This document shows positions 10,413-47,457 of a DNA stretch of 64,000 nt, piece after piece. Origin of the DNA: Patescibacteria group bacterium. GTDB taxonomy: Bacteria; Patescibacteriota; UBA1384; GWA2-35-9; JBASTP01. A program made the translations under genes and the position numbers. The DNA is taken from the NCBI GenBank assembly GCA_049274945.1, contig JBASTP010000005.1, positions 3,178 to 67,177 of the forward strand. Reading direction: 5' to 3'. The stretch's first letter is position 1. Every line of letters starts with the position of its first letter. The notes under the pieces were generated by a model, which worked only from the letters and a program-made list of their open reading frames with translations, was not told the DNA's origin and did not search any database.

Positions 10413-10919
10413 ATGACCACCAAAAAACAACCTGCCCCGACTAGCGCGTCGGGGCCGGCCCCGACTGAGCTAGAAAACCTGCTTAAACGCCTGCAGGCGG
10501 ATTTTGATAACTACCGTAAGCGCATGGAACAGGAAAAGGTTCACACTATACAATCTGCGAACGCAAAATTACTATTGGATATTTTGCCAGTAGTTGATAA
10601 CTTCCGACGGGCAATTACCCACCGACCTGTCCCTCGAAGCCCCGGAGGCGAAGTGGAAAACTCTAGCGAAGGTGGGGGCCAGGACAATTGGTCGCAAGGA
10701 ATTCAGGCAATTGAACGGCAACTCGAAGATATCCTACAAAAGCATGGTCTCCAAGCGATCGAAGTTACTGTCGGCGACGAATTCAACCCCACCCTCCACG
10801 AAGCAATTGCCCACCAACCCTCGGGTGATCACCAACCCAACTCGATCATCAAAATTGTAGAAAACGGCTACCAGCTTAGCGGCAAAGTGTTGCGCCCCGC
10901 CAAAGTAGTAGTCAGCTAA
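10413..10919 (+). CDS. grpE: Nucleotide exchange factor GrpE
   Basis: ORF 10362-10919 trimmed to the ATG at 10413 (MTTKKQPAPTS...) so it does not overlap the comEC start. Carries the GrpE coiled-coil and C-terminal beta-domain (LQADFDNYRKRMEQE...VENGYQLSGKVLRPAKVVV). Confidence 0.85.
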   Translation: MTTKKQPAPTSASGPAPTELENLLKRLQADFDNYRKRMEQEKVHTIQSANAKLLLDILPVVDNFRRAITHRPVPRSPGGEVENSSEGGGQDNWSQGIQAIERQLEDILQKHGLQAIEVTVGDEFNPTLHEAIAHQPSGDHQPNSIIKIVENGYQLSGKVLRPAKVVVS

Positions 10920-22961: not shown

Positions 22962-23693
22962 ATGACGATCAAGCCAATCAAAACACACAAGATCGATGGT
23001 AAGCAAACCATCCTCGATGTGTTAGAACACTATCTGCCTTCGCTTACGGAACAATCTATCGTCGCCATTACCTCGAAAATTGTTGCGATCTGCGAAGGAC
23101 GAGTCGTAAAGATGGGCACCATCGACAAAGCAGCGCTGATTCAAAAAGAGGCGGATTACTATATCCGTTCAAAAAGCAGCAATGACTACGCCATTTTAAC
23201 CATCAAAAACAATATGTTTATTCCGAGTGCCGGAATCGATGAATCAAACGGTAATGGCTACTATATCCTGTGGCCTAACAATCCGCAGAAAACCGCGGTA
23301 GCAACGAGGAAGTGGTTGGCAAAGCGTTTTAAGCTCAACAATGTTGGCGTAATTATTACCGACAGCAAAACAACGCCCCTGCGCTGGGGGACCACCGGGG
23401 TGGCGCTGGGATACAGTGGCTTTGAAGGCATTAAAAACTATGTTGGCAAAAAAGATATTTTTGGTCGCGCCCTCGAAGTTACCAAAGCCAATGTGGTTGA
23501 TCCGCTTGCGGCGATGGCGGTGTTAGCGATGGGCGAAGGGGCAGAACAAACCCCGATTGCCATTTTGGAGGATCCTGGATTTGTCAGTTTTAAGAAAAAT
23601 TATCCCTCGAAAAAAGAATTGGCGCTCCTTAATATTGGCCTAAAAGATCCGATGTACCAACCGCTACTGGCCGGAGCTCCGTGGAGATCGTAA
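22962..23693 (+). CDS. CofE-like (F420-0:gamma-glutamyl ligase family) protein
   Basis: IITDSKTTPLRWGTTGVALGYSGF and the surrounding fold resemble CofE/Nitroreductase-associated ligases. 243 aa. Confidence 0.5.
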   Translation: MTIKPIKTHKIDGKQTILDVLEHYLPSLTEQSIVAITSKIVAICEGRVVKMGTIDKAALIQKEADYYIRSKSSNDYAILTIKNNMFIPSAGIDESNGNGYYILWPNNPQKTAVATRKWLAKRFKLNNVGVIITDSKTTPLRWGTTGVALGYSGFEGIKNYVGKKDIFGRALEVTKANVVDPLAAMAVLAMGEGAEQTPIAILEDPGFVSFKKNYPSKKELALLNIGLKDPMYQPLLAGAPWRS

Positions 23694-24221
23694 CTGTTTG
23701 AGCCCCTCGGCCAAAAAGATCAGTTCGTCGAGCATTTTGTTGATACGATCATCAAACTCAGCCAACTTGAGATCCTTAACATTGGAAAAATAGACCGCTT
23801 GGCGAATGGGCACCATTTTGAGTTCGATCGCCACGAGGCGCAATTGTTCCACCACTCTCACTCCCCCGAGCACGCCAGCTGAAACGCCGCAGATCGCCAC
23901 CGGCTTGTAGTTATACTCTTCGTAAAGCTCGTCAAGCAGGATTTTCAAAACACCCGGGTAGCCGTGGTTATATTCGGGCGCCACGATCACAAACGCGTCC
24001 GCTGCTTGGGCAATCTTTTGCCAATCGTGAAACTCTTTGGGCATAGCATCGCTGTCATGGGAAGACAGTTTTGGATCGCAGTTGTAGTCGCGGGGATCAA
24101 CAAGCTGGGTTTTAATTGCTCGCTTTTTAAGTACATCCACCAAGTAACGCGCCGGCGCCTCCGAGCGCCGCCCTTCGCGAGAAGTTCCTAAAATTACGGG
24201 GATATTGAATTGGGAAGCCAT
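23664..24221 (-). CDS. NADPH-dependent FMN reductase family protein
   Basis: VIVAPEYNHGYPGVLK and an N-terminal flavodoxin-like fold. 185 aa. Overlaps the 3' end of the convergent CofE-like gene by 30 nt. Confidence 0.7.
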   Translation of the reverse strand: MASQFNIPVILGTSREGRRSEAPARYLVDVLKKRAIKTQLVDPRDYNCDPKLSSHDSDAMPKEFHDWQKIAQAADAFVIVAPEYNHGYPGVLKILLDELYEEYNYKPVAICGVSAGVLGGVRVVEQLRLVAIELKMVPIRQAVYFSNVKDLKLAEFDDRINKMLDELIFLAEGLKQLRSPRSSGQ

Positions 24222-24386
24222 TATATAACAACCTTTTTCTTTAATAAAGATGGGTGCATACGCTTCACCATTATTCCATTATAATATAAAATAAGTAAGA
24301 CAATTGGGCCTGTAGCCCCGACGCAAGGTCGGGGTCCCGACTTCAAAGAACGTCGGGACTCAGTGTCCCTTTGTTATGAAAATTAT

Positions 24387-24681
24387 GGGCCTGTAGCTCA
24401 GTGGTAGAGCAATTGCCTTCAACTTAGGAGCCTCAAGAAGGAAACGAACTTTTTGAGTGGATATCGCTATATGCTGGAACACCCCGCACCTTTTCATGAA
24501 AAGGTGCGGGACAATCAGCAGGGAAGTGCTTCGACTTCGCTCAGCACCCCTCAGAGACTATACGCGGTACACCTGCGATGGTGAAGAGATAGTCCAGCCT
24601 ACAACCACTTTTAGTGAGGCCACGGTAACGTGGAGTAGGATGTTAAGCAATGTGTCGCGGGTTCGATCCCCGCCAGGCCCT
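24387..24681 (+). tRNA. tRNA-Lys(UUU) interrupted by a group I intron in the anticodon loop (exons 24387-24419 and 24643-24681)
   Basis: Acceptor GGGCCTG/CAGGCCC, D-arm GCTCAGTGGTAGAGC, anticodon stem ATTGC/GCAAT, T-arm GCGGGTTCGATCCCCGC. The 5' anticodon-stem strand is followed by CTT and the 3' strand is preceded by TTAA. The only junction with a 5'-exon U and an intron-terminal G gives loop CTTTTAA (anticodon UUU), with the intron between positions 34 and 35. Confidence 0.7.
24420..24642 (+). ncRNA. Group I self-splicing intron (223 nt, no ORF) within tRNA-Lys
   Basis: CAGAGACTATA at 24551-24561 and GAAGAGATAGTCC at 24583-24595 match, from memory, the group I intron R and S core elements (Tetrahymena GUUCACAGACUAAA and AAGAUAUAGUCGG). 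A long P5/P6-like hairpin CCCGCACCTTTTC-ATG-AAAAGGTGCGGG, a P9-like hairpin with GTAA tetraloop, and a 3'-terminal G are also present. Confidence 0.7.
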
Positions 24682-24693
24682 CATTTCAGAAAG

Positions 24694-24717
24694 ACTCGCC
24701 TCGTGCGAGTTTTTTTT
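24694..24717 (+). terminator. Intrinsic terminator after tRNA-Lys
   Basis: ACTCGC-CTCGT-GCGAGT hairpin followed by TTTTTTTT. Confidence 0.6.
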
Positions 24718-24730
24718 GAAACTGGCAAGT

Positions 24731-24887
24731 GGGGATCGAACAGGAAAAAGGGTCGGAAAAAACACTTTGTTTTTTCCGTTTGCGGAAGCACATGAAACCG
24801 CAGGGTTTCATGCAGCAAATCTGCCGTAGCGATGCAGCTATAGCTTAGGCAGATTTGCTGGTGAGATTCCCCGCCAGGCCCTCATAC
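24731..24887 (+). repeat. tRNA-linked structured element, Lys copy
   Basis: Begins with GGGGATCGAAC, the reverse complement of the tRNA-Lys T-arm. The core CGAACAGGAAAAAGGGTCGGAAAAAACACTTTGTTTTTTCCGTTTGCGGAAGCACATGAAACCGCAGGGTTTCATG is homologous to the element after tRNA-Met (46334-46471). Ends GGTGAGATTCC plus an 18-nt copy of the tRNA-Lys 3' end (CCCCGCCAGGCCCTCAT). Confidence 0.5.
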
Positions 24888-25014
24888 CCTTCGATAAAGC
24901 TTCCGACTCCGCCCTCACTGCGTTGGACAAGTCGTGTGGCGAGCCACCCTTTCTGGGTGCGAACCATACGAACCGGTTGATTTTTTAGATTATTGAGATA
25001 ATACTTAAGATACT

Positions 25015-26091
25015 ATGGTGGGTAACATCTCACATAGAGTATTAGTGCTCGCAACTGTGTTATGGTCAGTACTGCTCGTTACATCGGTCATGGCTCAACC
25101 GATCAAGTTTGACGAACCGGTACAAACGATTCCCGGAAGAGGACTTGGCCGTATCGTATCGCTCTACTACCGAATCGCGGTCCAACTTACGCCCTCACCG
25201 CAAGAAAAGTTCACAATTCTGAATCGGCAGAGCGACTGGACGATTAAGGCATACCACCAGACGATCGATAATGATCCAGAGTTGGCACAAAAAATCCTGC
25301 AGATCTACCTGACCGATATCACCAGAAAACGAGAAAATCTTGCGGAGATGACAGAGGAACTACGAATGCAATCGATCACACGAATTGCGACCGAACAGGA
25401 TGCACTAGCTAAAACTATCACGAGTCGGCAAGACCAAGGGATACTGCAAAGATCAGACGAAACACAGTCCAATAAACCACCATCCCCTACCAGACCAGGA
25501 GCCAAACAACCAACAACCTCTACTGCTAGAGTTGCATCGAACAATCCACCGCCAGAAAACGGCCCAGTACCGAGCCAATCGCCGACAATCACTCAACCCG
25601 ACCCGTCAACGCAACCATCGGAAACCTCATCACCGCAGACGCCGATCTGCCCTTCAGGATCGTTCCCAATCCAACAGTTCAATGGCACCTGGAGTTGCGT
25701 CGAAACATTCAAAACAAGTCCGACCACCCCCACTGCAGAGCCAGTTGACCGACTTTGTGCAACTGAGAAGGTACCATACCCTGCTGACCCTAAAAAGAAA
25801 ATCACCCTTGACACGAGTTCATACACCTGCCGAGAACCAGGCTGGATCACCACTACACAAGGATCAAATCCATTTCCAACCGCCCTCCCATACTGCAGTA
25901 CTCAACGAGATACTGGTCTGCCACCGTCAGGGTACTATTTCCCATATTACAATTCGAGCACCAAAATAGGTTTGCTCTGTGCGTTCGATGTCGGTTCGCT
26001 CACGATCGTGTGTCCCGAGCCAAGGGTTGCAGAAGAACTGAAATCATACTACGGTTCCCGCTACAAAAAAGAGTACTTTTGTTTGTATTAA
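25015..26091 (+). CDS. Secreted hypothetical protein with PST-rich linker and Cys-rich C-terminal domain
   Basis: 358 aa. Signal peptide, helical N-domain, a P/S/T/Q low-complexity region, and a C-terminal region with 10 Cys. AT-richer than its surroundings and bracketed by partial copies of the tRNA-Lys 3' end. Confidence 0.55.
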   Translation: MVGNISHRVLVLATVLWSVLLVTSVMAQPIKFDEPVQTIPGRGLGRIVSLYYRIAVQLTPSPQEKFTILNRQSDWTIKAYHQTIDNDPELAQKILQIYLTDITRKRENLAEMTEELRMQSITRIATEQDALAKTITSRQDQGILQRSDETQSNKPPSPTRPGAKQPTTSTARVASNNPPPENGPVPSQSPTITQPDPSTQPSETSSPQTPICPSGSFPIQQFNGTWSCVETFKTSPTTPTAEPVDRLCATEKVPYPADPKKKITLDTSSYTCREPGWITTTQGSNPFPTALPYCSTQRDTGLPPSGYYFPYYNSSTKIGLLCAFDVGSLTIVCPEPRVAEELKSYYGSRYKKEYFCLY

Positions 26092-26104
26092 AAAATCGAG
26101 TCTT

Positions 26105-26125
26105 ATCCCCGCCGGGCCCTCATAC
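26105..26125 (+). repeat. Third partial copy of the tRNA-Lys 3' end (TATCCCCGCCGGGCCCTCATAC)
   Basis: Matches tRNA-Lys 3'-end positions and the copy at 24866-24887, including the shared trailing CATAC. One substitution (A to G). Confidence 0.4.
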
Positions 26126-26152
26126 AAAAAAGCCCTGTCGTTGAGACAGGAC
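26125..26152 (-). terminator. Terminator of the minus-strand isomerase gene
   Basis: CCTGTC-GTTGA-GACAGG hairpin. On the minus strand it is followed by TTTTTT (the complement of AAAAAA at 26125-26130). Confidence 0.5.
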
Positions 26153-26173
26153 TTGGATCTGAAATCGATTAGA

Positions 26174-27028
26174 TCAACGGTTTATAACACTCTCATAGCA
26201 ATCTACCAGGTGTTGGTAGCTGCGAGTAGCAATGACATCGGCACCCGGTGAAAAATCAAACGCCTCAACCGAGACGCACCCTCGATAGCCGATCTCGATC
26301 AGCGCGGCGAAGACTTCGGTAAAGTCAATGCCGTTTTCTGCCATGCCGGGGCCCTGCATATTGAGATCGTTCAGGTGGACGTGGTGGAGTATCGGTGCAT
26401 GCCTGCGAATCAGCCAACCCCGTGAACATTGCTCGCTGCGCATACTATAGCAGTCGAGGATAATCCTCACGGGATGCCCGGCGAGTTCCTCGAGATTATC
26501 GGCAAATGCCGCTGCCTCCTCAGCCGTCGTTAGAAAATTGGTCTGATCGGGACTGAGCGGCTCAATGCACAACATAACACCAAGGTCAGCACCAACGCGG
26601 ACCGCCTGTTTCAAGGTGTGGAGCGAAAGCGTCCGCGCCCGGTCGGGCTCAACATCTGGCTTGATTGAGCGCTGCTGGGGCGATCCAAACACCATAGTAT
26701 CGCCTCCGATATCGTGGCAAAACCGGACAAGCTCCACCAGATATCCACTCGTCCTGTCTCTCACAGCCTTATCAGGATCGGAGATGTGCATCCCCTCTGT
26801 GTCCTTGAGCAGCCAGTGGAGGCCGACTATCTTAAGCTTGCTAACCTCCGCAGCAAGCCTGATCTGATTGCGCCGAGCATCAGAGATTTCAGTGACATCC
26901 TTCGAGATGATAAATGGCGCGATCTCTATGGCATCGTAGCCAAACATTTTGGCTTCAACGAATACATCTTCGATTGGGCGATTGCCCCAGAGTTCGTTGC
27001 AGATAGCAAACCTGAACGATCGTGGCAT
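26174..27028 (-). CDS. Sugar phosphate isomerase/epimerase (xylose-isomerase-like TIM barrel)
   Basis: 284 aa. AP-endonuclease-2/xylose-isomerase-like TIM-barrel motifs (GYDAIEI, HVHLND, LCIEPL). Confidence 0.7.
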   Translation of the reverse strand: MPRSFRFAICNELWGNRPIEDVFVEAKMFGYDAIEIAPFIISKDVTEISDARRNQIRLAAEVSKLKIVGLHWLLKDTEGMHISDPDKAVRDRTSGYLVELVRFCHDIGGDTMVFGSPQQRSIKPDVEPDRARTLSLHTLKQAVRVGADLGVMLCIEPLSPDQTNFLTTAEEAAAFADNLEELAGHPVRIILDCYSMRSEQCSRGWLIRRHAPILHHVHLNDLNMQGPGMAENGIDFTEVFAALIEIGYRGCVSVEAFDFSPGADVIATRSYQHLVDCYESVINR

Positions 27029-27063
27029 TTTGCCACCCCCAATTGTGAATGTCCAGCCAACTT

Positions 27064-27092
27064 ATTGTAGCATAAAAAAATATACTTTGCAA
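27064..27092 (-). promoter_or_regulatory. Promoter TTGCAA-17-TACAAT for the isomerase gene (minus strand)
   Basis: Minus-strand -35 at 27087-27092 and -10 at 27064-27069 with a 17-nt spacer, about 35 nt upstream of the start at 27028. Confidence 0.45.
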
Positions 27093-27095
27093 TTT

Positions 27096-27788: not shown

Positions 27789-29645
27789 CTACCTTATTAC
27801 GGCTGTTCCGGCGATTTTCTTACTCTGGCGAGTGCGGGCCGTGGTGTCCAATATTTTTTTGCGCAATCGTAAACTTTTTGGCGTTACCTCAAGGAATTCA
27901 TCGTCTTCCAAAAAATCGAGGCCCTGCTCGAGGCTCATCAAAACCGGCGGGGCCAGAATAACACTAATGTCCGAGGTTGACGCGCGAACATTGGTCATCT
28001 TCTTTTCTTTGGTAACGTTAATCTCAATGTCTTCTTCACGGCTATTGAGGCCAATAATCATGCCTTTATACACTTGGGTTTGCGGCTCAATGAATGTGGT
28101 ACCGCGGCCCTGGGCAATGTTGAGCCCGTAGGTTACCGCTTTGCCGTTTTCTGACGCAATCAACACGCCGTTGCGCAGTTTGGAAATTGGCGCACCAAGT
28201 GGCGCAAACTTAATAAAGAGCGAATTCATAACCGCGGTGCCACGGGAAATGGTGAGCAGTTGGTTGCGCAGCCCTAACAGCCCGCGGGTGGCAATTTCAA
28301 ATACTAACCGGATGGTGCCGTCTGAATTATCGGACTGTGCGAGCAACATGCCGCGGCGGCGCCCCACCTCGGCTGTAATCGCGCCGGCGTAGGCTGCGCC
28401 AACATCCACCGTGAGCTCTTCAATCGGCTCAACTATTTTACCATCTTGGATTTGTGTAATAACCGTTGGTTTTCCCACTTGCAACTCGTAGCCTTCGCGC
28501 CGCAGCGTTTCGATCAACACCGAGAGGTGCAACTCGCCACGGCCCGAGAGCAGAAATTCACCGCGAGCGGCACGAGCGGCTTGGTCAGATACCTCAAGCT
28601 TTAACGATACATTTGTTTCGAGTTCGCGTTCAATCCGCTCAAGAATTTGTCGGCTCGTCACAAATTTTCCTTCTCTGCCGACAAACGGCGAAGTGTTGGC
28701 GGAAACGGCCATTTTGAGGGTGGGAGGCGCAATGATAATGCGGGGCAAGGCCTCGGGTGTTAGGGCATCGGCAATGGTGTCGCCAATTTTGGCGTTCTTA
28801 AAACCGGTGAGTGCCACAATATCGCCGGCCACGGCCTCGCCCACCTGCACTCGCTTGAGCCCTTGGCTTACGTACACACTATCGATCACGCCCGACTCGC
28901 TTGCGCCGTGTTCGCCGAGCACCCTAACTTTTAATCCAGGGCGGGCAGCGCCGCGGGCAATCCTGCCAATGGCATACTTGCCTTGGTAGCTGTCCCAATC
29001 AAGGGTGGTTACTACCATTTGGAATGCCCCAACTTGGTCGCCAACTGGCGCGGGAATGTGCTGCAGAATACCTTCAAATAGCGGCGAAAGGTCAGCTTGC
29101 TCGCTGAAATCACCGGGCTGCTGCGCCCATGCCTTGCCGTCTCTGCCGATTGCAACATACACCGGAAAATCGAGCTCGGATTCGTGCCGGGCCAGCTCCA
29201 AAAAAAGATCGTGGGTTTTGCGAATCACCTCGTCAACCCGGGCGTCTTTTTTATCGATTTTGTTGATCACCACAATGATTTTAAGGCCGAGTTCAAGCGC
29301 TTTTTTGAGCACAAATTTGGTTTGCGGCATCGGGCCTTCTTGCGCGTCAATGAGCAACAGGGCGCCGTCGGCCATGGCAAGGGTGCGTTCCACCTCGCCG
29401 CCAAAATCAGCGTGGCCCGGGGTATCGATAATGTTAATTTTTACGTCCTTATACGTAATCGCTGTATTCTTGGCCAAAATGGTAATGCCGCGCTCGCGCT
29501 CTTGGTCGCTCCAATCCATAATAAGCGCCTGAGCCATTTCCGGCTCGTTTTCCCTAAACGTTTTGGACTGCTTTAACAGGCCATCTACTAAGGTGGTCTT
29601 GCCGTGGTCAACGTGGGCAATAATAGCAACGTTGCGTAATTCCAT
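27789..29645 (-). CDS. typA: Translational GTPase TypA/BipA
   Basis: NVAIIAHVDHGKTTLVD, DTPGHADF and NKIDK G-motifs plus TypA-specific C-terminal domains. 618 aa. Confidence 0.9.
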   Translation of the reverse strand: MELRNVAIIAHVDHGKTTLVDGLLKQSKTFRENEPEMAQALIMDWSDQERERGITILAKNTAITYKDVKINIIDTPGHADFGGEVERTLAMADGALLLIDAQEGPMPQTKFVLKKALELGLKIIVVINKIDKKDARVDEVIRKTHDLFLELARHESELDFPVYVAIGRDGKAWAQQPGDFSEQADLSPLFEGILQHIPAPVGDQVGAFQMVVTTLDWDSYQGKYAIGRIARGAARPGLKVRVLGEHGASESGVIDSVYVSQGLKRVQVGEAVAGDIVALTGFKNAKIGDTIADALTPEALPRIIIAPPTLKMAVSANTSPFVGREGKFVTSRQILERIERELETNVSLKLEVSDQAARAARGEFLLSGRGELHLSVLIETLRREGYELQVGKPTVITQIQDGKIVEPIEELTVDVGAAYAGAITAEVGRRRGMLLAQSDNSDGTIRLVFEIATRGLLGLRNQLLTISRGTAVMNSLFIKFAPLGAPISKLRNGVLIASENGKAVTYGLNIAQGRGTTFIEPQTQVYKGMIIGLNSREEDIEINVTKEKKMTNVRASTSDISVILAPPVLMSLEQGLDFLEDDEFLEVTPKSLRLRKKILDTTARTRQSKKIAGTAVIR

Positions 29646-46519: not shown

Positions 46520-46595
46520 TGGTGGCTGCGGTAGGGATCGAACCTACGACCTAACGCTTATGAAGCGCTCGCTCTAACCACTGAGCTACGCAGCC
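46520..46595 (-). tRNA. tRNA-Met(CAU), elongator type (could be tRNA-Ile2 if lysidinylated), CCA encoded
   Basis: Complete 76-nt cloverleaf: GGCTGCG-TA-GCTC-AGTGGTTA-GAGC-G-AGCGC-TTCATAA-GCGTT-AGGTC-GTAGG-TTCGATC-CCTAC-CGCAGCC-A-CCA. Confidence 0.85.
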
Positions 46596-46692
46596 ATCAC
46601 ATACAAAGTAGCACAGGTTTGACGCCTGCGCTACTTTGTATCTGCTGTTATGTTGCGGGGGTGGGATTTGAACCCACGACCTCCAGGTTATG

Positions 46693-47323
46693 CATACCAC
46701 TGCGGCTTTCGCCGTCCCAAAAAAGGTTTGTGGTCTGGACTATACCTTATCCCGATACAACGTTGTCGGGATCCCGCCATCTAGTCTCTACACCTTACCC
46801 GATGTATATCGGGTCTTGGCTCGGTATTACCATATCTACAGAGATAAGGCTTCACCGAATTTGACGGGTATTGCCCCGCTCGTTACCGAGCGGGCGGCCC
46901 ACGATGACAACAAATCCCAACGTTCCCTGTAAGCAGCTGCGATCGGTTTTCGCTGCCTTTTTTCGACTTCTACGAGCGCGATTGTACTGCCATAACGTAC
47001 AAAAATTTCAACTGGAATCACGTAGAAGACAGGGCCTTGATCAATGTAGACGATTGCAAGGTCAAAATCTTCATTGTTGTAACGCTCTCTTCGCATCACC
47101 CGCCGGTTGGTTTTGGTCCTGCGCACATCTACGGCAAAGTAATTATTGGCAGGAACAAACCACGCGTGCTTGATCTGGATACGAATGAGCTTTCCGTTGA
47201 GGTCAACTGCTATGTCATAAGGTAATCGATCACCAACTGGTTTGAGTACCTTAAAGCCTCGACGAAGAAGTTCTGTTACAACAGCTGACTCCGCAATGTC
47301 TGCCTTGAGTTTTGTGTCCATTG
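46693..47323 (-). mobile_element. Group I intron carrying an internal homing-endonuclease-like ORF
   Basis: Core elements on the minus strand are GTAGAGACTAGATGG (R-like) and AAGGTATAGTCCAG (S-like), plus P9-like CGGC-GAAA-GCCG and a terminal G before CATAA. The ORF starts 2 nt after the 5' splice site and occupies the 5' part of the intron. Confidence 0.7.
46836..47321 (-). CDS. Intron-encoded PD-(D/E)XK-type putative homing endonuclease
   Basis: 161 aa, MDTKLKADIAESAVVTELLRRGFKV.... PYDIAVDLNGKLIRIQIK has D...D/E-x-K restriction-endonuclease-fold spacing. The track ORF 46836-47351 begins with an upstream GTG that is actually tRNA exon 1. Confidence 0.55.
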   Translation of the reverse strand: MDTKLKADIAESAVVTELLRRGFKVLKPVGDRLPYDIAVDLNGKLIRIQIKHAWFVPANNYFAVDVRRTKTNRRVMRRERYNNEDFDLAIVYIDQGPVFYVIPVEIFVRYGSTIALVEVEKRQRKPIAAAYRERWDLLSSWAARSVTSGAIPVKFGEALSL

Positions 47324-47457
47324 AGCCTGGCGAGCTACCGGACTGCTCCACCCCGCGATGTTATTAGTGTTCGCTGTCGCACAAAATAATCTGCGACAGT
47401 ATCCGTATTATACACATATTTACATTCTCGTGTAAAGATCGTAAGCTAAAGTTCGCA

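What the first reader, a model, noticed from the sequence alone, without database searches (positions are those of the whole stretch)
24387..24681. tRNA-Lys(UUU) interrupted by an ORF-less 223-nt group I intron between positions 34 and 35
Both halves of a canonical tRNA are present: acceptor GGGCCTG/CAGGCCC, anticodon stem ATTGC/GCAAT and a TTCGATC T-loop. They are separated by 223 nt containing CAGAGACTATA and GAAGAGATAGTCC, which match the R and S core elements of group I introns, plus a 12-bp P5/P6-like hairpin and a P9-like GTAA hairpin.

Only one junction satisfies group I rules (5'-exon U, intron-terminal G) and leaves a 7-nt loop. That loop is CTT|TTAA, anticodon UUU, the same 34/35 site as I recall for the cyanobacterial tRNA-Leu(UAA) intron. 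A group I intron in a tRNA-Lys gene would be unusual, and this window carries two different intron-bearing tRNAs.
Basis: partly seen in the sequence, partly recalled or inferred. Interest (0 to 1): 0.7.

Follow-up and report, generated by a model that had tools for sequence, protein, structure and literature searches.

The report
Group I intron splitting tRNA-Lys(UUU)
A lysine tRNA gene of an uncultured Patescibacteria bacterium is interrupted in its anticodon by a 223-base self-splicing (group I) intron; this is a real but ordinary example of a kind of intron already catalogued in other bacteria.

Summary
Window 24387-24681 (+) is a tRNA-Lys(UUU) gene. It consists of exon 1 (24387-24419), an ORF-less 223-nt group I intron (24420-24642) and exon 2 (24643-24681).

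The junction is fixed by an empty site. A close relative (L282) has an intronless tRNA-Lys(UUU) that is 100% identical to exon 1 plus exon 2, joined exactly at 24419|24643. ARAGORN's call of tRNA-Asn(GUU) is wrong: it would need an intron ending in U, and the 22 nearest intronless tRNAs listed are all tRNA-Lys; the closest 15 carry U73.

The ribozyme fold is supported by:
- RF00028, 40.6 bits, E = 1e-8 over 1 kb (below the gathering score of 50);
- a folding-energy z-score of -4.7;
- covariation across 20 homologues: 86% of cells paired against about 40% for slid controls, with P2 compensatory at 9/9 pairs and P3 at 6/6.

The host is a Patescibacteria MAG close to Berkelbacteria.

Novelty is modest. 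Lys(UUU) 34/35 group I introns are already listed for Actinomycetota in Table S5 of Nakagawa et al. 2026. The same intron family sits in tRNA-Arg(UCU) and tRNA-Asn genes. That paper's 95 complete Patescibacteria genomes had no Lys intron. Verdict: new member of a known kind.

The parts
24387..24419 (+). 5' exon of tRNA-Lys(UUU): acceptor 5' strand, D arm, anticodon-stem 5' strand, C32 U33 U34
   Evidence: Sequence. Clean cloverleaf after splicing. 100% identical to the intronless L282 tRNA up to 24419.
24420..24642 (+). ORF-less 223-nt group I intron; first base C, last base the omega-G at 24642
   Evidence: RF00028 40.6 bits, E = 1e-8. Folding z = -4.7. Covariation in A1. Absent from the empty-site alleles L281 and L282. 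No ORF.
24643..24681 (+). 3' exon: U35 U36 A37 A38, anticodon-stem 3' strand, variable loop, T arm, acceptor 3' strand, discriminator U73 (24681); no CCA encoded
   Evidence: U73 is shared by the closest 15 intronless tRNA-Lys genes, which are of Patescibacteria type.
24417..24430 (+). P1: CUUC (24417-24420) pairs with GGAG (24427-24430). U34 (24419) forms a wobble with G (24428) at the 5' splice site.
   Evidence: Sequence. Paired in all 17 tRNA-Lys members of A1; the three tRNA-Asn rows use a junction one base upstream and account for the unpaired cells. The fourth pair is C-G, U-A or U-G (helix 1).
24423..24427 (+). Candidate P10 guide: CUUAG pairs with the first five bases of the 3' exon, UUAAG (24643-24647)
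   Evidence: 5/5 pairs in the window. 73% of cells paired in the family, one covarying pair; support is weak.
24432..24457 (+). P2 hairpin: CUCAAGAAG / CUUUUUGAG, loop GAAACGAA
   Evidence: 9/9 pairs carry compensatory changes and 100% of cells are paired. Recovered by the MFE fold.
24462..24467 (+). P3 5' strand, UAUCGC
   Evidence: Pairs with 24564-24569. 6/6 pairs have changes on both sides; 95.8% paired.
24472..24550 (+). P4-P5-P6 domain: P4 24472-24477/24515-24520; P5 12-bp hairpin 24483-24494/24499-24510; P6 24521-24523/24548-24550; P6a 24526-24530/24543-24547
   Evidence: inverted repeat I2. P5 and P6 lengths differ between lineages, so only their bases can be aligned.
24554..24561 (+). 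R element and P7 5' strand. G24554 pairs with C24595, A24555 is bulged, and GACUAU (24556-24561) pairs with AUAGUC (24589-24594). G24556-C24594 is the inferred guanosine-binding pair.
   Evidence: Sequence. All six pairs stay standard in all 20 homologues (5 never vary, 1 has a single A-U to G-U change; 100% of cells paired). Aligned to the RF00028 core. The G-binding assignment is by analogy with Tetrahymena G264-C311 (my knowledge).
24564..24569 (+). P3 3' strand, GCGGUA; forms a pseudoknot with P7
   Evidence: helix 3.
24570..24583 (+). P8 hairpin: CACC UGCGAU GGUG
   Evidence: 100% paired with almost no variation. The same CACC/GGUG P8 occurs in tRNA-Arg(UCU) introns.
24584..24595 (+). J8/7 and S element / P7 3' strand, AAGAGAUAGUCC
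24598..24639 (+). P9 domain: P9 CCUAC/GUAGG (24598-24602/24635-24639); P9a 24606-24608/24614-24616; P9b CCACG-GUAA-CGUGG (24620-24633)
   Evidence: P9 99% paired. P9b has 4/5 pairs compensatory, with a GNRA loop in all 20 homologues (GUAA in the window and the three other Patescibacteria-type members, GAAA in the rest). Recovered by the MFE fold.
24694..24717 (+). Terminator-like hairpin ACUCGC-CUCGU-GCGAGU followed by a run of T, 13 nt after the tRNA
   Evidence: Read from the sequence. Not listed by the consensus scan.
24264..24292 (+). Promoter-like site TTCACC-17-TAAAAT upstream of the gene and of the 5' tRNA fragment
   Evidence: Consensus scan only, 9/12 matches. Weak evidence.

Best explanation
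Window 24387-24681 is the chromosomal tRNA-Lys(UUU) gene of a Patescibacteria bacterium related to Berkelbacteria. A 223-nt ORF-less group I intron interrupts it between U34 and U35.

Inferred mechanism, following standard group I chemistry:
1. The precursor folds into the P1-P9 ribozyme.
2. The internal guide GGAG (24427-24430) pairs with C32-U33-U34 plus the first intron base, placing U34 in a U-G wobble.
3. A free guanosine bound at the P7 G-C pair attacks after U34.
4. The 3' OH of U34 then attacks after the terminal G (24642). It is possibly aligned by a P10 pairing between CUUAG and the 3'-exon bases UUAAG.
5. This joins CUU to UUAA and releases the intron.
6. RNase P and CCA addition complete the tRNA, since no CCA is encoded.

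Shown here: the gene anatomy, the exact DNA boundaries of the insert, the conserved and covarying ribozyme fold, the isotype, and the host.

Inferred only: catalysis itself, and whether any protein helps.
For: **Boundaries.**
- L282 has an intronless tRNA-Lys(UUU) identical to window 24386-24419 plus 24643-24683. L281 (Ca. Berkelbacteria, GCA_016196985.1) is also intronless at the corresponding place between the same neighbouring genes. These relatives share 89% TypA identity with the window.
- Group I rules are met only by this junction: U at -1 in a U-G wobble, and G at the intron's 3' end.

**Isotype.**
- All 22 nearest intronless tRNAs listed are Lys(UUU) or Lys(CUU), and the closest 15 carry U73. 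The best match is L221, 70/72.
- The only Asn(GUU) hits have different acceptor stems and G73.

**Ribozyme.**
- RF00028 gives E = 1e-8 with the R and S cores aligned.
- The MFE fold recovers P2, P4, P5, P6, P9, P9a and P9b, with z = -4.7.
- In 20 homologues, 86% of cells are paired against 36-48% for slid controls.
- 28 pairs show changes on both sides against 14 in shuffles (0/500 shuffles reach this).
- P2 is compensatory at 9/9 pairs, P3 at 6/6 and P9b at 4/5. P7 and P8 are essentially invariant.

**Homologous introns at the same site.**
- They occur in other Patescibacteria-type tRNA-Lys genes: L145/L256 (exons identical to the window's), L257, and L269/L279.
- They are 71-73% identical to the window intron.

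**Host.** TypA is 100% identical to an NCBI protein of a 'Patescibacteria group bacterium' MAG.
Against: - The RF00028 score (40.6 bits) is below Rfam's gathering score of 50, so a standard annotation run would not call the intron.
- There is no transcript or splicing data.
- P10 is only weakly supported across the family.
- The gene sits in a rearranged patch littered with tRNA fragments. A decaying copy cannot be formally excluded from 64 kb alone.
- Most helices were derived from the window sequence itself. That inflates 'cells paired' relative to the slid controls, though not the compensatory-change counts.
Confidence: 0.9

Rival explanations
1. It is tRNA-Asn(GUU) with the intron between positions 33 and 34, as ARAGORN reports.
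For: - ARAGORN -i labels it tRNA-Asn(gtt) i(33,223).
- The Asn-spliced sequence also folds as a clean cloverleaf.
- Related introns do sit at 33/34 in genuine tRNA-Asn genes: L255, L258 and L268.
Against: - That junction needs an intron ending in U or A rather than G. The true Asn cases have two Gs there (..G|GUUAA), whereas the window has one.
- The empty-site alleles read CCTTTTAAGC, not CCTGTTAAGC.
- The nearest intronless tRNAs are all Lys; the closest 15 have U73. Asn hits have G73 and other acceptor stems.
- PMC13011429 documents that ARAGORN often misplaces such junctions.
Confidence: 0.02
2. The intron is real but catalytically dead or decaying. This copy would be a non-functional relic in a rearranged region, with lysine decoding supplied by another gene.
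For: - The gene is flanked by duplicated tRNA ends: 24305-24316 and 24868-24885, plus an inverted T-loop fragment at 24731-24741.
- It is inverted relative to the relatives' arrangement.
- The Rfam score is below gathering.
Against: - The exons are 100% identical to the functional-looking intronless allele in L282.
- Every core helix is intact in the window. The P7/P8 cores match the family consensus.
- The U-G wobble, omega-G and P7 G-C pair are all present.
- Small Patescibacteria genomes rarely carry redundant tRNA genes (general knowledge, not tested here).
Confidence: 0.06
3. Splicing occurs but depends on a host protein cofactor rather than being autonomous.
For: - Nothing direct.
- Some group I introns need protein helpers (general knowledge).
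- The peripheral elements are small, and P10 is weak.
Against: - Compact tRNA group I introns such as Azoarcus tRNA-Ile and Anabaena tRNA-Leu self-splice well in vitro (my knowledge).
- Two Patescibacteria tRNA introns self-spliced in vitro (PMC13011429 abstract).
- GNRA loops (L9b GUAA, and a GAAA within L2) are available for tertiary docking.
Confidence: 0.1

Closest known systems
tRNA-Lys(UUU) 34/35 group I introns of Actinomycetota (Table S5 of Nakagawa et al. 2026, PMC13011429): GCF_022919715.1, GCF_009930795.1, GCF_015277895.1, GCF_021582875.1
   Same: - Same isotype and same insertion site, CUU|...G|UUAA.
- A GGAG guide sequence in three of the four (the fourth has UGGAG after a longer A-rich start).
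- The first two share the P4, P7 and P9 core strings (..tatgctggaacaccc.., ..cctcagagactatacgc.., ..atagtccagact..).
- They are about 60% identical to the window intron.
   Different: - Different phylum.
- Their tRNA has A73; the window's has U73.
- Their P5 and P8 are longer, giving introns of 218-255 nt.
- That paper's classifier labels them IB2 or IC3.
tRNA-Arg(UCU) 34/35 group I introns of Bacillota, Bacteroidota and phages
   Same: - The 5' exon ends in the same C32-U33-U34.
- The intron begins similarly (yAA..UAGGAGCCUU..).
- The P8 stem is identical (CACC / GGUG); its loop is UGAAAU where the window has UGCGAU.
- P9 has the same layout.
   Different: - The 3' exon starts CUAA rather than UUAA.
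- Many carry a homing-endonuclease ORF, giving introns of 600-650 nt.
- They are 54-58% identical to the window intron.
Cyanobacterial and plastid tRNA-Leu(UAA) intron (IC3)
   Same: - Same position, between U34 and base 35.
- Compact, ORF-less IC-type fold with P2 and P9 (my knowledge; Table S5 Leu examples).
   Different: - Different tRNA.
- From my recollection of the Anabaena sequence, its P7 reads GACUC/GAGUC where the window has GACUAU/AUAGUC. The Acidobacteriota tRNA-Leu examples in Table S5 instead have ..agagactagac.. / ..atagtcc...
- About 53% identity to an Acidobacteriota tRNA-Leu intron.
Patescibacteria tRNA-Asn/Asp 35/36 introns (Nakagawa et al. 2026)
   Same: - Same host phylum.
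- Also ORF-less group I introns in the anticodon loop.
- Also missed or mislabelled by tRNA finders.
   Different: - They are inserted at 35/36.
- They are classified IA.
- They sit in Asn and Asp tRNAs. No Lys intron appeared among the 95 complete genomes (Table 1).
tRNA-fMet(CAU) 33/34 intron with a PD-(D/E)XK endonuclease (I-Ssp6803I type), present in this same window
   Same: It is a group I intron in an anticodon loop of the same genome. Its R and S cores are similar (GUAGAGACUAGAU / AAGGUAUAGUCCAG).
   Different: - Different site (33/34) and different tRNA.
- It carries a homing-endonuclease ORF.
- It passes Rfam's gathering score, at 53 bits.

Membership tests
Group I intron (RF00028) | Significant match to the family covariance model | tested here: inconclusive
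   40.6 bits, E = 1e-8 over 1 kb, with the full-length model 1-253 aligned. This is below the curated gathering score of 50, so the gathering-mode scan does not report it.
Group I intron (RF00028) | Conserved core: P3-P8 with the P3/P7 pseudoknot and the P4-P6 domain, maintained by covariation | tested here: met
   Counted on 65 pairs across 20 homologues. 86% of cells are paired against 36-48% for slid controls. P3 is compensatory at 6/6 pairs, P4 is 95% paired, and P7 and P8 are 100% paired.
Group I intron (RF00028) | 5' splice site after a U that forms a U-G wobble in P1 | tested here: met
   U34 (24419) pairs with G24428. This U-G is present in all 17 tRNA-Lys members of A1 (pair 35/46).
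Group I intron (RF00028) | The intron ends in G (omega-G) | tested here: met
   G at 24642. The boundary is fixed by the empty-site allele. All aligned homologues end in G.
Group I intron (RF00028) | Guanosine-binding G-C pair in P7 next to a bulged nucleotide | tested here: met
   The arrangement is G24554-C24595, bulged A24555, then G24556-C24594. P7 keeps standard pairs in all 20 sequences. The assignment is by analogy with Tetrahymena (my knowledge).
Group I intron (RF00028) | Self-splicing with exogenous guanosine, giving precisely ligated exons | not testable with these tools
   This needs an in vitro splicing assay or RNA-seq.
tRNA-Lys(UUU) | The spliced product is a canonical cloverleaf with anticodon UUU | tested here: met
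   ARAGORN on the spliced sequence reports tRNA-Lys(ttt), 73 bases as submitted (72-nt tRNA plus one extra 3' base).
tRNA-Lys(UUU) | The body matches intronless tRNA-Lys genes of related organisms, not other isotypes | tested here: met
   L282 is 100% identical, L221 is 70/72, and all 22 nearest listed are Lys (the closest 15 with U73). Asn hits differ in acceptor stem and discriminator.
Subgroup IC3 (bacterial tRNA introns) | IC3 architecture: P2 present, no P2.1, no P5abc, no P7.1/P7.2, and best score with a subgroup-specific model | tested here: inconclusive
   The helices found fit an IC3-like layout. No subgroup models were available. Close relatives in Table S5 are machine-labelled IB2 or IC3.
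Patescibacteria 35/36 IA tRNA introns (Nakagawa et al. 2026) | Insertion between positions 35 and 36 of tRNA-Asn or tRNA-Asp | tested here: not met
   Here the insertion is at 34/35 in tRNA-Lys. The intron is not a member of that class.

The most novel reading that the evidence does not exclude
This would be the first tRNA-Lys(UUU) intron lineage described in Patescibacteria. It is an IC-type ribozyme in a phylum whose tRNA introns were reported as almost all IA.

Its distribution is patchy. It is present in the window, L269, L257 and L145, but absent from the near relatives L281, L282 and L168, even though the exons are identical or nearly so. It encodes no homing endonuclease.

The same family also sits at C32-U33-U34 in tRNA-Arg(UCU), and one base upstream in tRNA-Asn. 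Together these facts would point to endonuclease-independent spread: reverse splicing guided by a GGAG/CUU P1 pairing, or arrival together with the rearranged tRNA cassette seen here.
Probability: 0.25. Interest if true: 0.5.

Novelty: new member of a known kind. Interest (0 to 1): 0.3.

Why it matters
**Annotation.** Default ARAGORN and the Rfam gathering threshold both miss this gene. ARAGORN with introns allowed gives the wrong amino acid. A genome annotated that way would seem to lack tRNA-Lys(UUU), or to have a spurious tRNA-Asn.

**Biology.** The finding adds lysine (34/35) to the list of intron-bearing tRNAs in Patescibacteria. It also links that lineage to a wider intron family shared by tRNA-Lys, tRNA-Arg(UCU) and tRNA-Asn genes of other phyla and phages. 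It does not change what is known about how such introns work.

Tried and rejected
- **Loose viral scan.** It did show that intron-bearing phage tRNAs of many isotypes are common.
- **First literature search.** 'group I intron' plus 'tRNA-Lys' returned only organelle and eukaryote papers. A four-term search was uninformative.
- **Source contig look-ups.**
  - Looking it up through the FMN reductase gave only a 1.5-kb Logan contig, which diverges just upstream of the tRNA.
  - The exact TypA sequence was not on record in the contig index.
  - L283 ends before the tRNA.
- **P1 from the Rfam alignment.** It had four mismatches and was replaced by a hand model (CUUC/GGAG) that holds across the tRNA-Lys members of the family.
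- **GAAGG at 24437-24441 as the guide sequence.** Rejected because it lies inside P2, which covaries perfectly.
- **Cyanobacterial host.** Considered because of the tRNA-fMet intron. HIP1 occurs only 7 times, and TypA places the host in Patescibacteria.
- **P5 and P6 beyond their basal pairs.** They could not be tested, because lineage-specific length differences defeat the MAFFT alignment (helices 5 and 6).
- **Family-specific covariance model.** Not built.

Full report
**1. The observation**

The sequence at 24387-24681 holds two halves of a tRNA.
- The first half is GGGCCTG-TA-GCTC-AGTGGTA-GAGC-A-ATTGC-CTT.
- After 223 nt comes TTAA-GCAAT-GTGTC-GCGGG-TTCGATC-CCCGC-CAGGCCC-T.

How the detectors behave:
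- Default ARAGORN misses the gene.
- With introns allowed, ARAGORN reports a gene at 24387..24682 with a 223-nt intron, but calls it tRNA-Asn(gtt).
- Rfam at gathering thresholds reports nothing here.
- A permissive scan of 24100-25100 gives RF00028 at 24409-24615: 40.6 bits, E = 1e-8, against a gathering score of 50. The R (CAGAGACUAUACG) and S (AAGAGAUAGUCC) cores are aligned.

The insert has no credible ORF. It folds far better than shuffles: -80.6 kcal/mol, z = -4.7, 0 of 200 shuffles as good.

**2. Where exactly the intron is, and which tRNA this is**

Two junctions give a 7-nt anticodon loop.
- CUU|...G|UUAA gives Lys(UUU). It leaves a U before the 5' splice site and a G at the end of the intron.
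- CU|...U|GUUAA gives Asn(GUU). It would end the intron in U.

Three independent lines agree on Lys.

(a) Empty sites.
- TypA of the window (27789-29645, -) is 100% identical to an NCBI protein of a 'Patescibacteria group bacterium' MAG. It is 89% identical to proteins from a Ca. Berkelbacteria MAG and from an ENA assembly.
- The contigs of those two relatives (L281 = GCA_016196985.1 JACPWR010000020.1; L282 = ERZ27245926 k141_475492) carry an intronless tRNA-Lys(UUU) between the same neighbouring genes.
- BLAST splits the L282 gene into window 24386-24419 and 24643-24683, both at 100% identity.
- The printed sequences show that L282 equals exon 1 plus exon 2 over all 72 nt. No other junction reproduces CCTTTTAAGC.

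(b) tRNA body.
- A scan of 185,579 species genomes for the 5' half returned 119 loci.
- All 22 intronless tRNAs nearest to the spliced product are Lys(UUU) or Lys(CUU). The closest 15 have the unusual discriminator U73 and, where the record names an organism, come from Patescibacteria. The best is L221 (Berkelbacteria), 70/72, differing by one compensatory T-stem pair.
- The only two Asn(GUU) hits have other acceptor stems and G73.

(c) Group I rules. P1 can be drawn as CUUC (24417-24420) with GGAG (24427-24430), placing U34 opposite G.

**3. Is it a working-type ribozyme?**

A scan of metagenome contigs used the S element plus a downstream GTTAA and found 29 loci. They fall into four groups.
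- Patescibacteria-type tRNA-Lys genes with a homologous intron at the same site: L256 (identical in sequence to L145, a genome-collection MAG deposited as 'uncultured Candidatus Saccharibacteria', whose exons are identical to the window's), L257, and L269/L279.
- A large group of A73 tRNA-Lys(UUU) genes with introns of about 258 nt. ARAGORN also gives L252 and L261 introns of about 645 nt. I did not confirm those boundaries and left both out of A1.
- L277, whose tRNA-Lys(UUU) carries a 672-nt intron.
- Three tRNA-Asn(GUU) genes in which the related intron sits one base upstream, CU|G...G|GUUAA.

Twenty distinct sequences were aligned (A1). I wrote P1-P9 from the window sequence and counted pairs.
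- 86% of cells are paired, against 36-48% when partners are slid by 1-3 columns.
- 28 pairs show changes on both sides, against 14 ± 2.3 in shuffles (0 of 500 shuffles reach this).
- P2 is compensatory at 9/9 pairs and 100% paired.
- P3 is compensatory at 6/6 pairs, and P9b at 4/5.
- P4 is 95% paired and P9 99% paired.
- P7 and P8 are essentially invariant.
- P5 and P6 differ in length between lineages and could be judged only at their bases.
- A P10 pairing between CUUAG (24423-24427) and the first five exon-2 bases is perfect in the window. It is only 73% paired across the family, so I treat it as plausible, not shown.

The P7 arrangement is G24554-C24595, bulged A24555, then G24556-C24594. 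This is the usual guanosine-binding site layout (assignment from my own knowledge of Tetrahymena and Azoarcus). The window intron is 71-73% identical to the other Patescibacteria-type Lys introns. It is a distinct member, not a copy.

**4. Mechanism**

The standard two-step transesterification is inferred.
1. Exogenous G attacks after U34.
2. The U34 3' OH attacks after G24642.
3. The exons are ligated to CUU-UUAA.

RNase P and CCA addition are still needed, because the gene ends ...CAGGCCC-U-CA with no CCA. A hairpin followed by a T run at 24694-24717 looks like the terminator. A weak promoter-like site lies at 24264-24292. Catalysis was not tested.

**5. Comparison with what is known**

Nakagawa et al. 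(mSystems 2026, PMC13011429) surveyed tRNA introns in Patescibacteria and beyond.
- In 95 complete Patescibacteria genomes, their Table 1 lists 25 intron-bearing tRNA loci: 22 found with RF00028 and 3 more found only by ARAGORN or tFind. They are in Asn and Asp (35/36), Met and Phe (33/34), Tyr and Thr. None is in Lys, and nearly all are subgroup IA.
- Their Table S5 covers 4,934 complete genomes and 333 tRNA introns.
- The part of Table S5 held here lists Lys(TTT) 34/35 in four Actinomycetota genomes. Two of them clearly belong to the same sequence family as the window intron, at about 60% identity.
- Table S5 also lists Arg(TCT) 34/35 introns whose 5' exon ends in the same CUU and whose P8 stem is the same CACC/GGUG.
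- The same paper shows that ARAGORN and tFind often shift junctions and mislabel isotypes. That is what happened here.

So the class, the site and even the isotype are already on record. What is new is the host phylum for this isotype, and an IC-like rather than IA intron in that phylum. I could not run subgroup models, and the stored supplement is truncated. I therefore cannot exclude further Lys entries in it.

**6. Distribution and context**

The intron is patchy among related genomes.
- Present: the window and L269. L269 also has dnaK and dnaJ near its tRNA-Lys, and its DnaK is about 73% identical.
- Absent: L281, L282 and L168.

With no endonuclease gene in the intron, this means either repeated loss or endonuclease-independent gain. 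The data do not decide between them.

The window locus is also rearranged.
- In L281 and L282 the tRNA lies directly between the NT5C (or its remnant) and F420-ligase-like genes, in the opposite orientation.
- In the window it is surrounded by extra genes (FMN reductase, a 358-aa ORF, a xylose-isomerase-like protein) and by duplicated tRNA ends.

**7. Verdict**

The finding is a genuine, probably functional, group I intron in tRNA-Lys(UUU). It is a new member of a known kind, of moderate-to-low interest. Its main practical value is for annotation.

Noticed in passing
window 46652-47357 (-): A second intron-bearing tRNA. It is an initiator-type tRNA-Met(CAU) with a C1-A72 mismatch, split after U33 (GGCU|CAAUGG...GGUAUG|CAUAA) by a 631-nt group I intron. 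RF00028 scores 53 bits at 46716-47004. The intron carries an ORF (46836-47321) that matches PF11645 PD-(D/E)XK endonuclease at E = 4.9e-40, the I-Ssp6803I type of homing endonuclease. An elongator-type tRNA-Met lies next to it at 46520-46595.
   Followed up: partly
window 24305-24316, 24868-24885, 24731-24741: Fragments of the same tRNA flank the intact gene. A 12-nt copy of its 5' end lies 81 nt upstream. An 18-nt copy of its 3' end, including 3 nt beyond the discriminator, lies 201 nt downstream. An 11-nt inverted copy of the T loop lies in between. This looks like the scar of integration or recombination at the tRNA, but it was not resolved.
   Followed up: partly
window 23664-27095 compared with L281 5075-5715 and L282 10798-11980: Relatives with 89% identical TypA have the tRNA-Lys directly between the NT5C (or its remnant) and F420-ligase-like genes, in the opposite orientation. 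The window has about 3.4 kb of extra sequence around an inverted tRNA: an FMN reductase (23664-24221), a 358-aa ORF with no Pfam match (25015-26091) and a xylose-isomerase-like TIM-barrel gene (26174-27028).
   Followed up: partly
L001 (Logan SRR28002555 contig, 1515 nt) compared with window 23597-24365: This contig is 99.7% identical to the window through the FMN reductase and the upstream tRNA fragment, then diverges at 24365/24366. There it carries a tRNA-Thr(CGU) and different downstream genes in place of the intron-bearing tRNA-Lys. It is either strain-level rearrangement at a shared GTAGCTCAGTGGTAGAGC D-arm sequence, or an assembly chimera.
   Followed up: partly
window 24317-24333, 24336-24357, 10436-10453: Three short hairpins share the stem CCCGAC...GTCGGG (0.01 expected by chance). 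Two of them sit in tandem inside the upstream tRNA 5' fragment. This may be a small repeated palindromic element.
   Followed up: no
viral loci L002-L121 and L241-L251: Of 120 IMG/VR contigs matching a loose group I R...S core pattern, 47 have the match inside an intron-bearing tRNA gene. ARAGORN calls them mostly Leu(UAA), with Phe, Ser, Met, Lys(CUU), Arg(UCU), 'Tyr' and suppressor-like UUA also present. L241/L243, L248 and L251 hold tRNA genes with 610-654-nt introns that share P8 and P9 with the window intron. ARAGORN calls L248 and L251 Arg(UCU) and L241/L243 Ser(GCU); the 3' exon CUAAGC fits Arg(UCU) at 34/35. L066 and L250 share the same 3' architecture, but ARAGORN found no tRNA there.
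   Followed up: partly
genome loci L139, L186, L214, L194; L134, L158, L167, L181, L220: Patescibacteria tRNA-Phe(GAA) genes are interrupted in the anticodon loop: CCU|AAAUCUUUGGGCC in three MAGs, and GAAG|UCUUCGGGCC in one. DPANN archaeal tRNA-Thr genes also have inserts after the anticodon. These were not analysed further.
   Followed up: no
metagenome loci L252-L280: A widespread group of A73 tRNA-Lys(UUU) genes (GCCUCUU...ACGGACUU|UAAAAUAGGAGCC...) carries the same intron family on long contigs (up to 264 kb) of unknown host. There are 13 distinct sequences with introns of about 258 nt. ARAGORN gives L252 and L261 about 645 nt, and L277 (a separate tRNA-Lys) has a 672-nt intron. Three tRNA-Asn(GUU) genes (L255, L258, L268) have a related intron at 33/34.
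   Followed up: partly
window 24387-24682: ARAGORN with introns allowed assigns the wrong isotype (Asn) and the wrong junction (33/34). Default ARAGORN and the Rfam gathering threshold miss the gene altogether. Automated annotation of this genome would therefore lack tRNA-Lys(UUU).
   Followed up: yes
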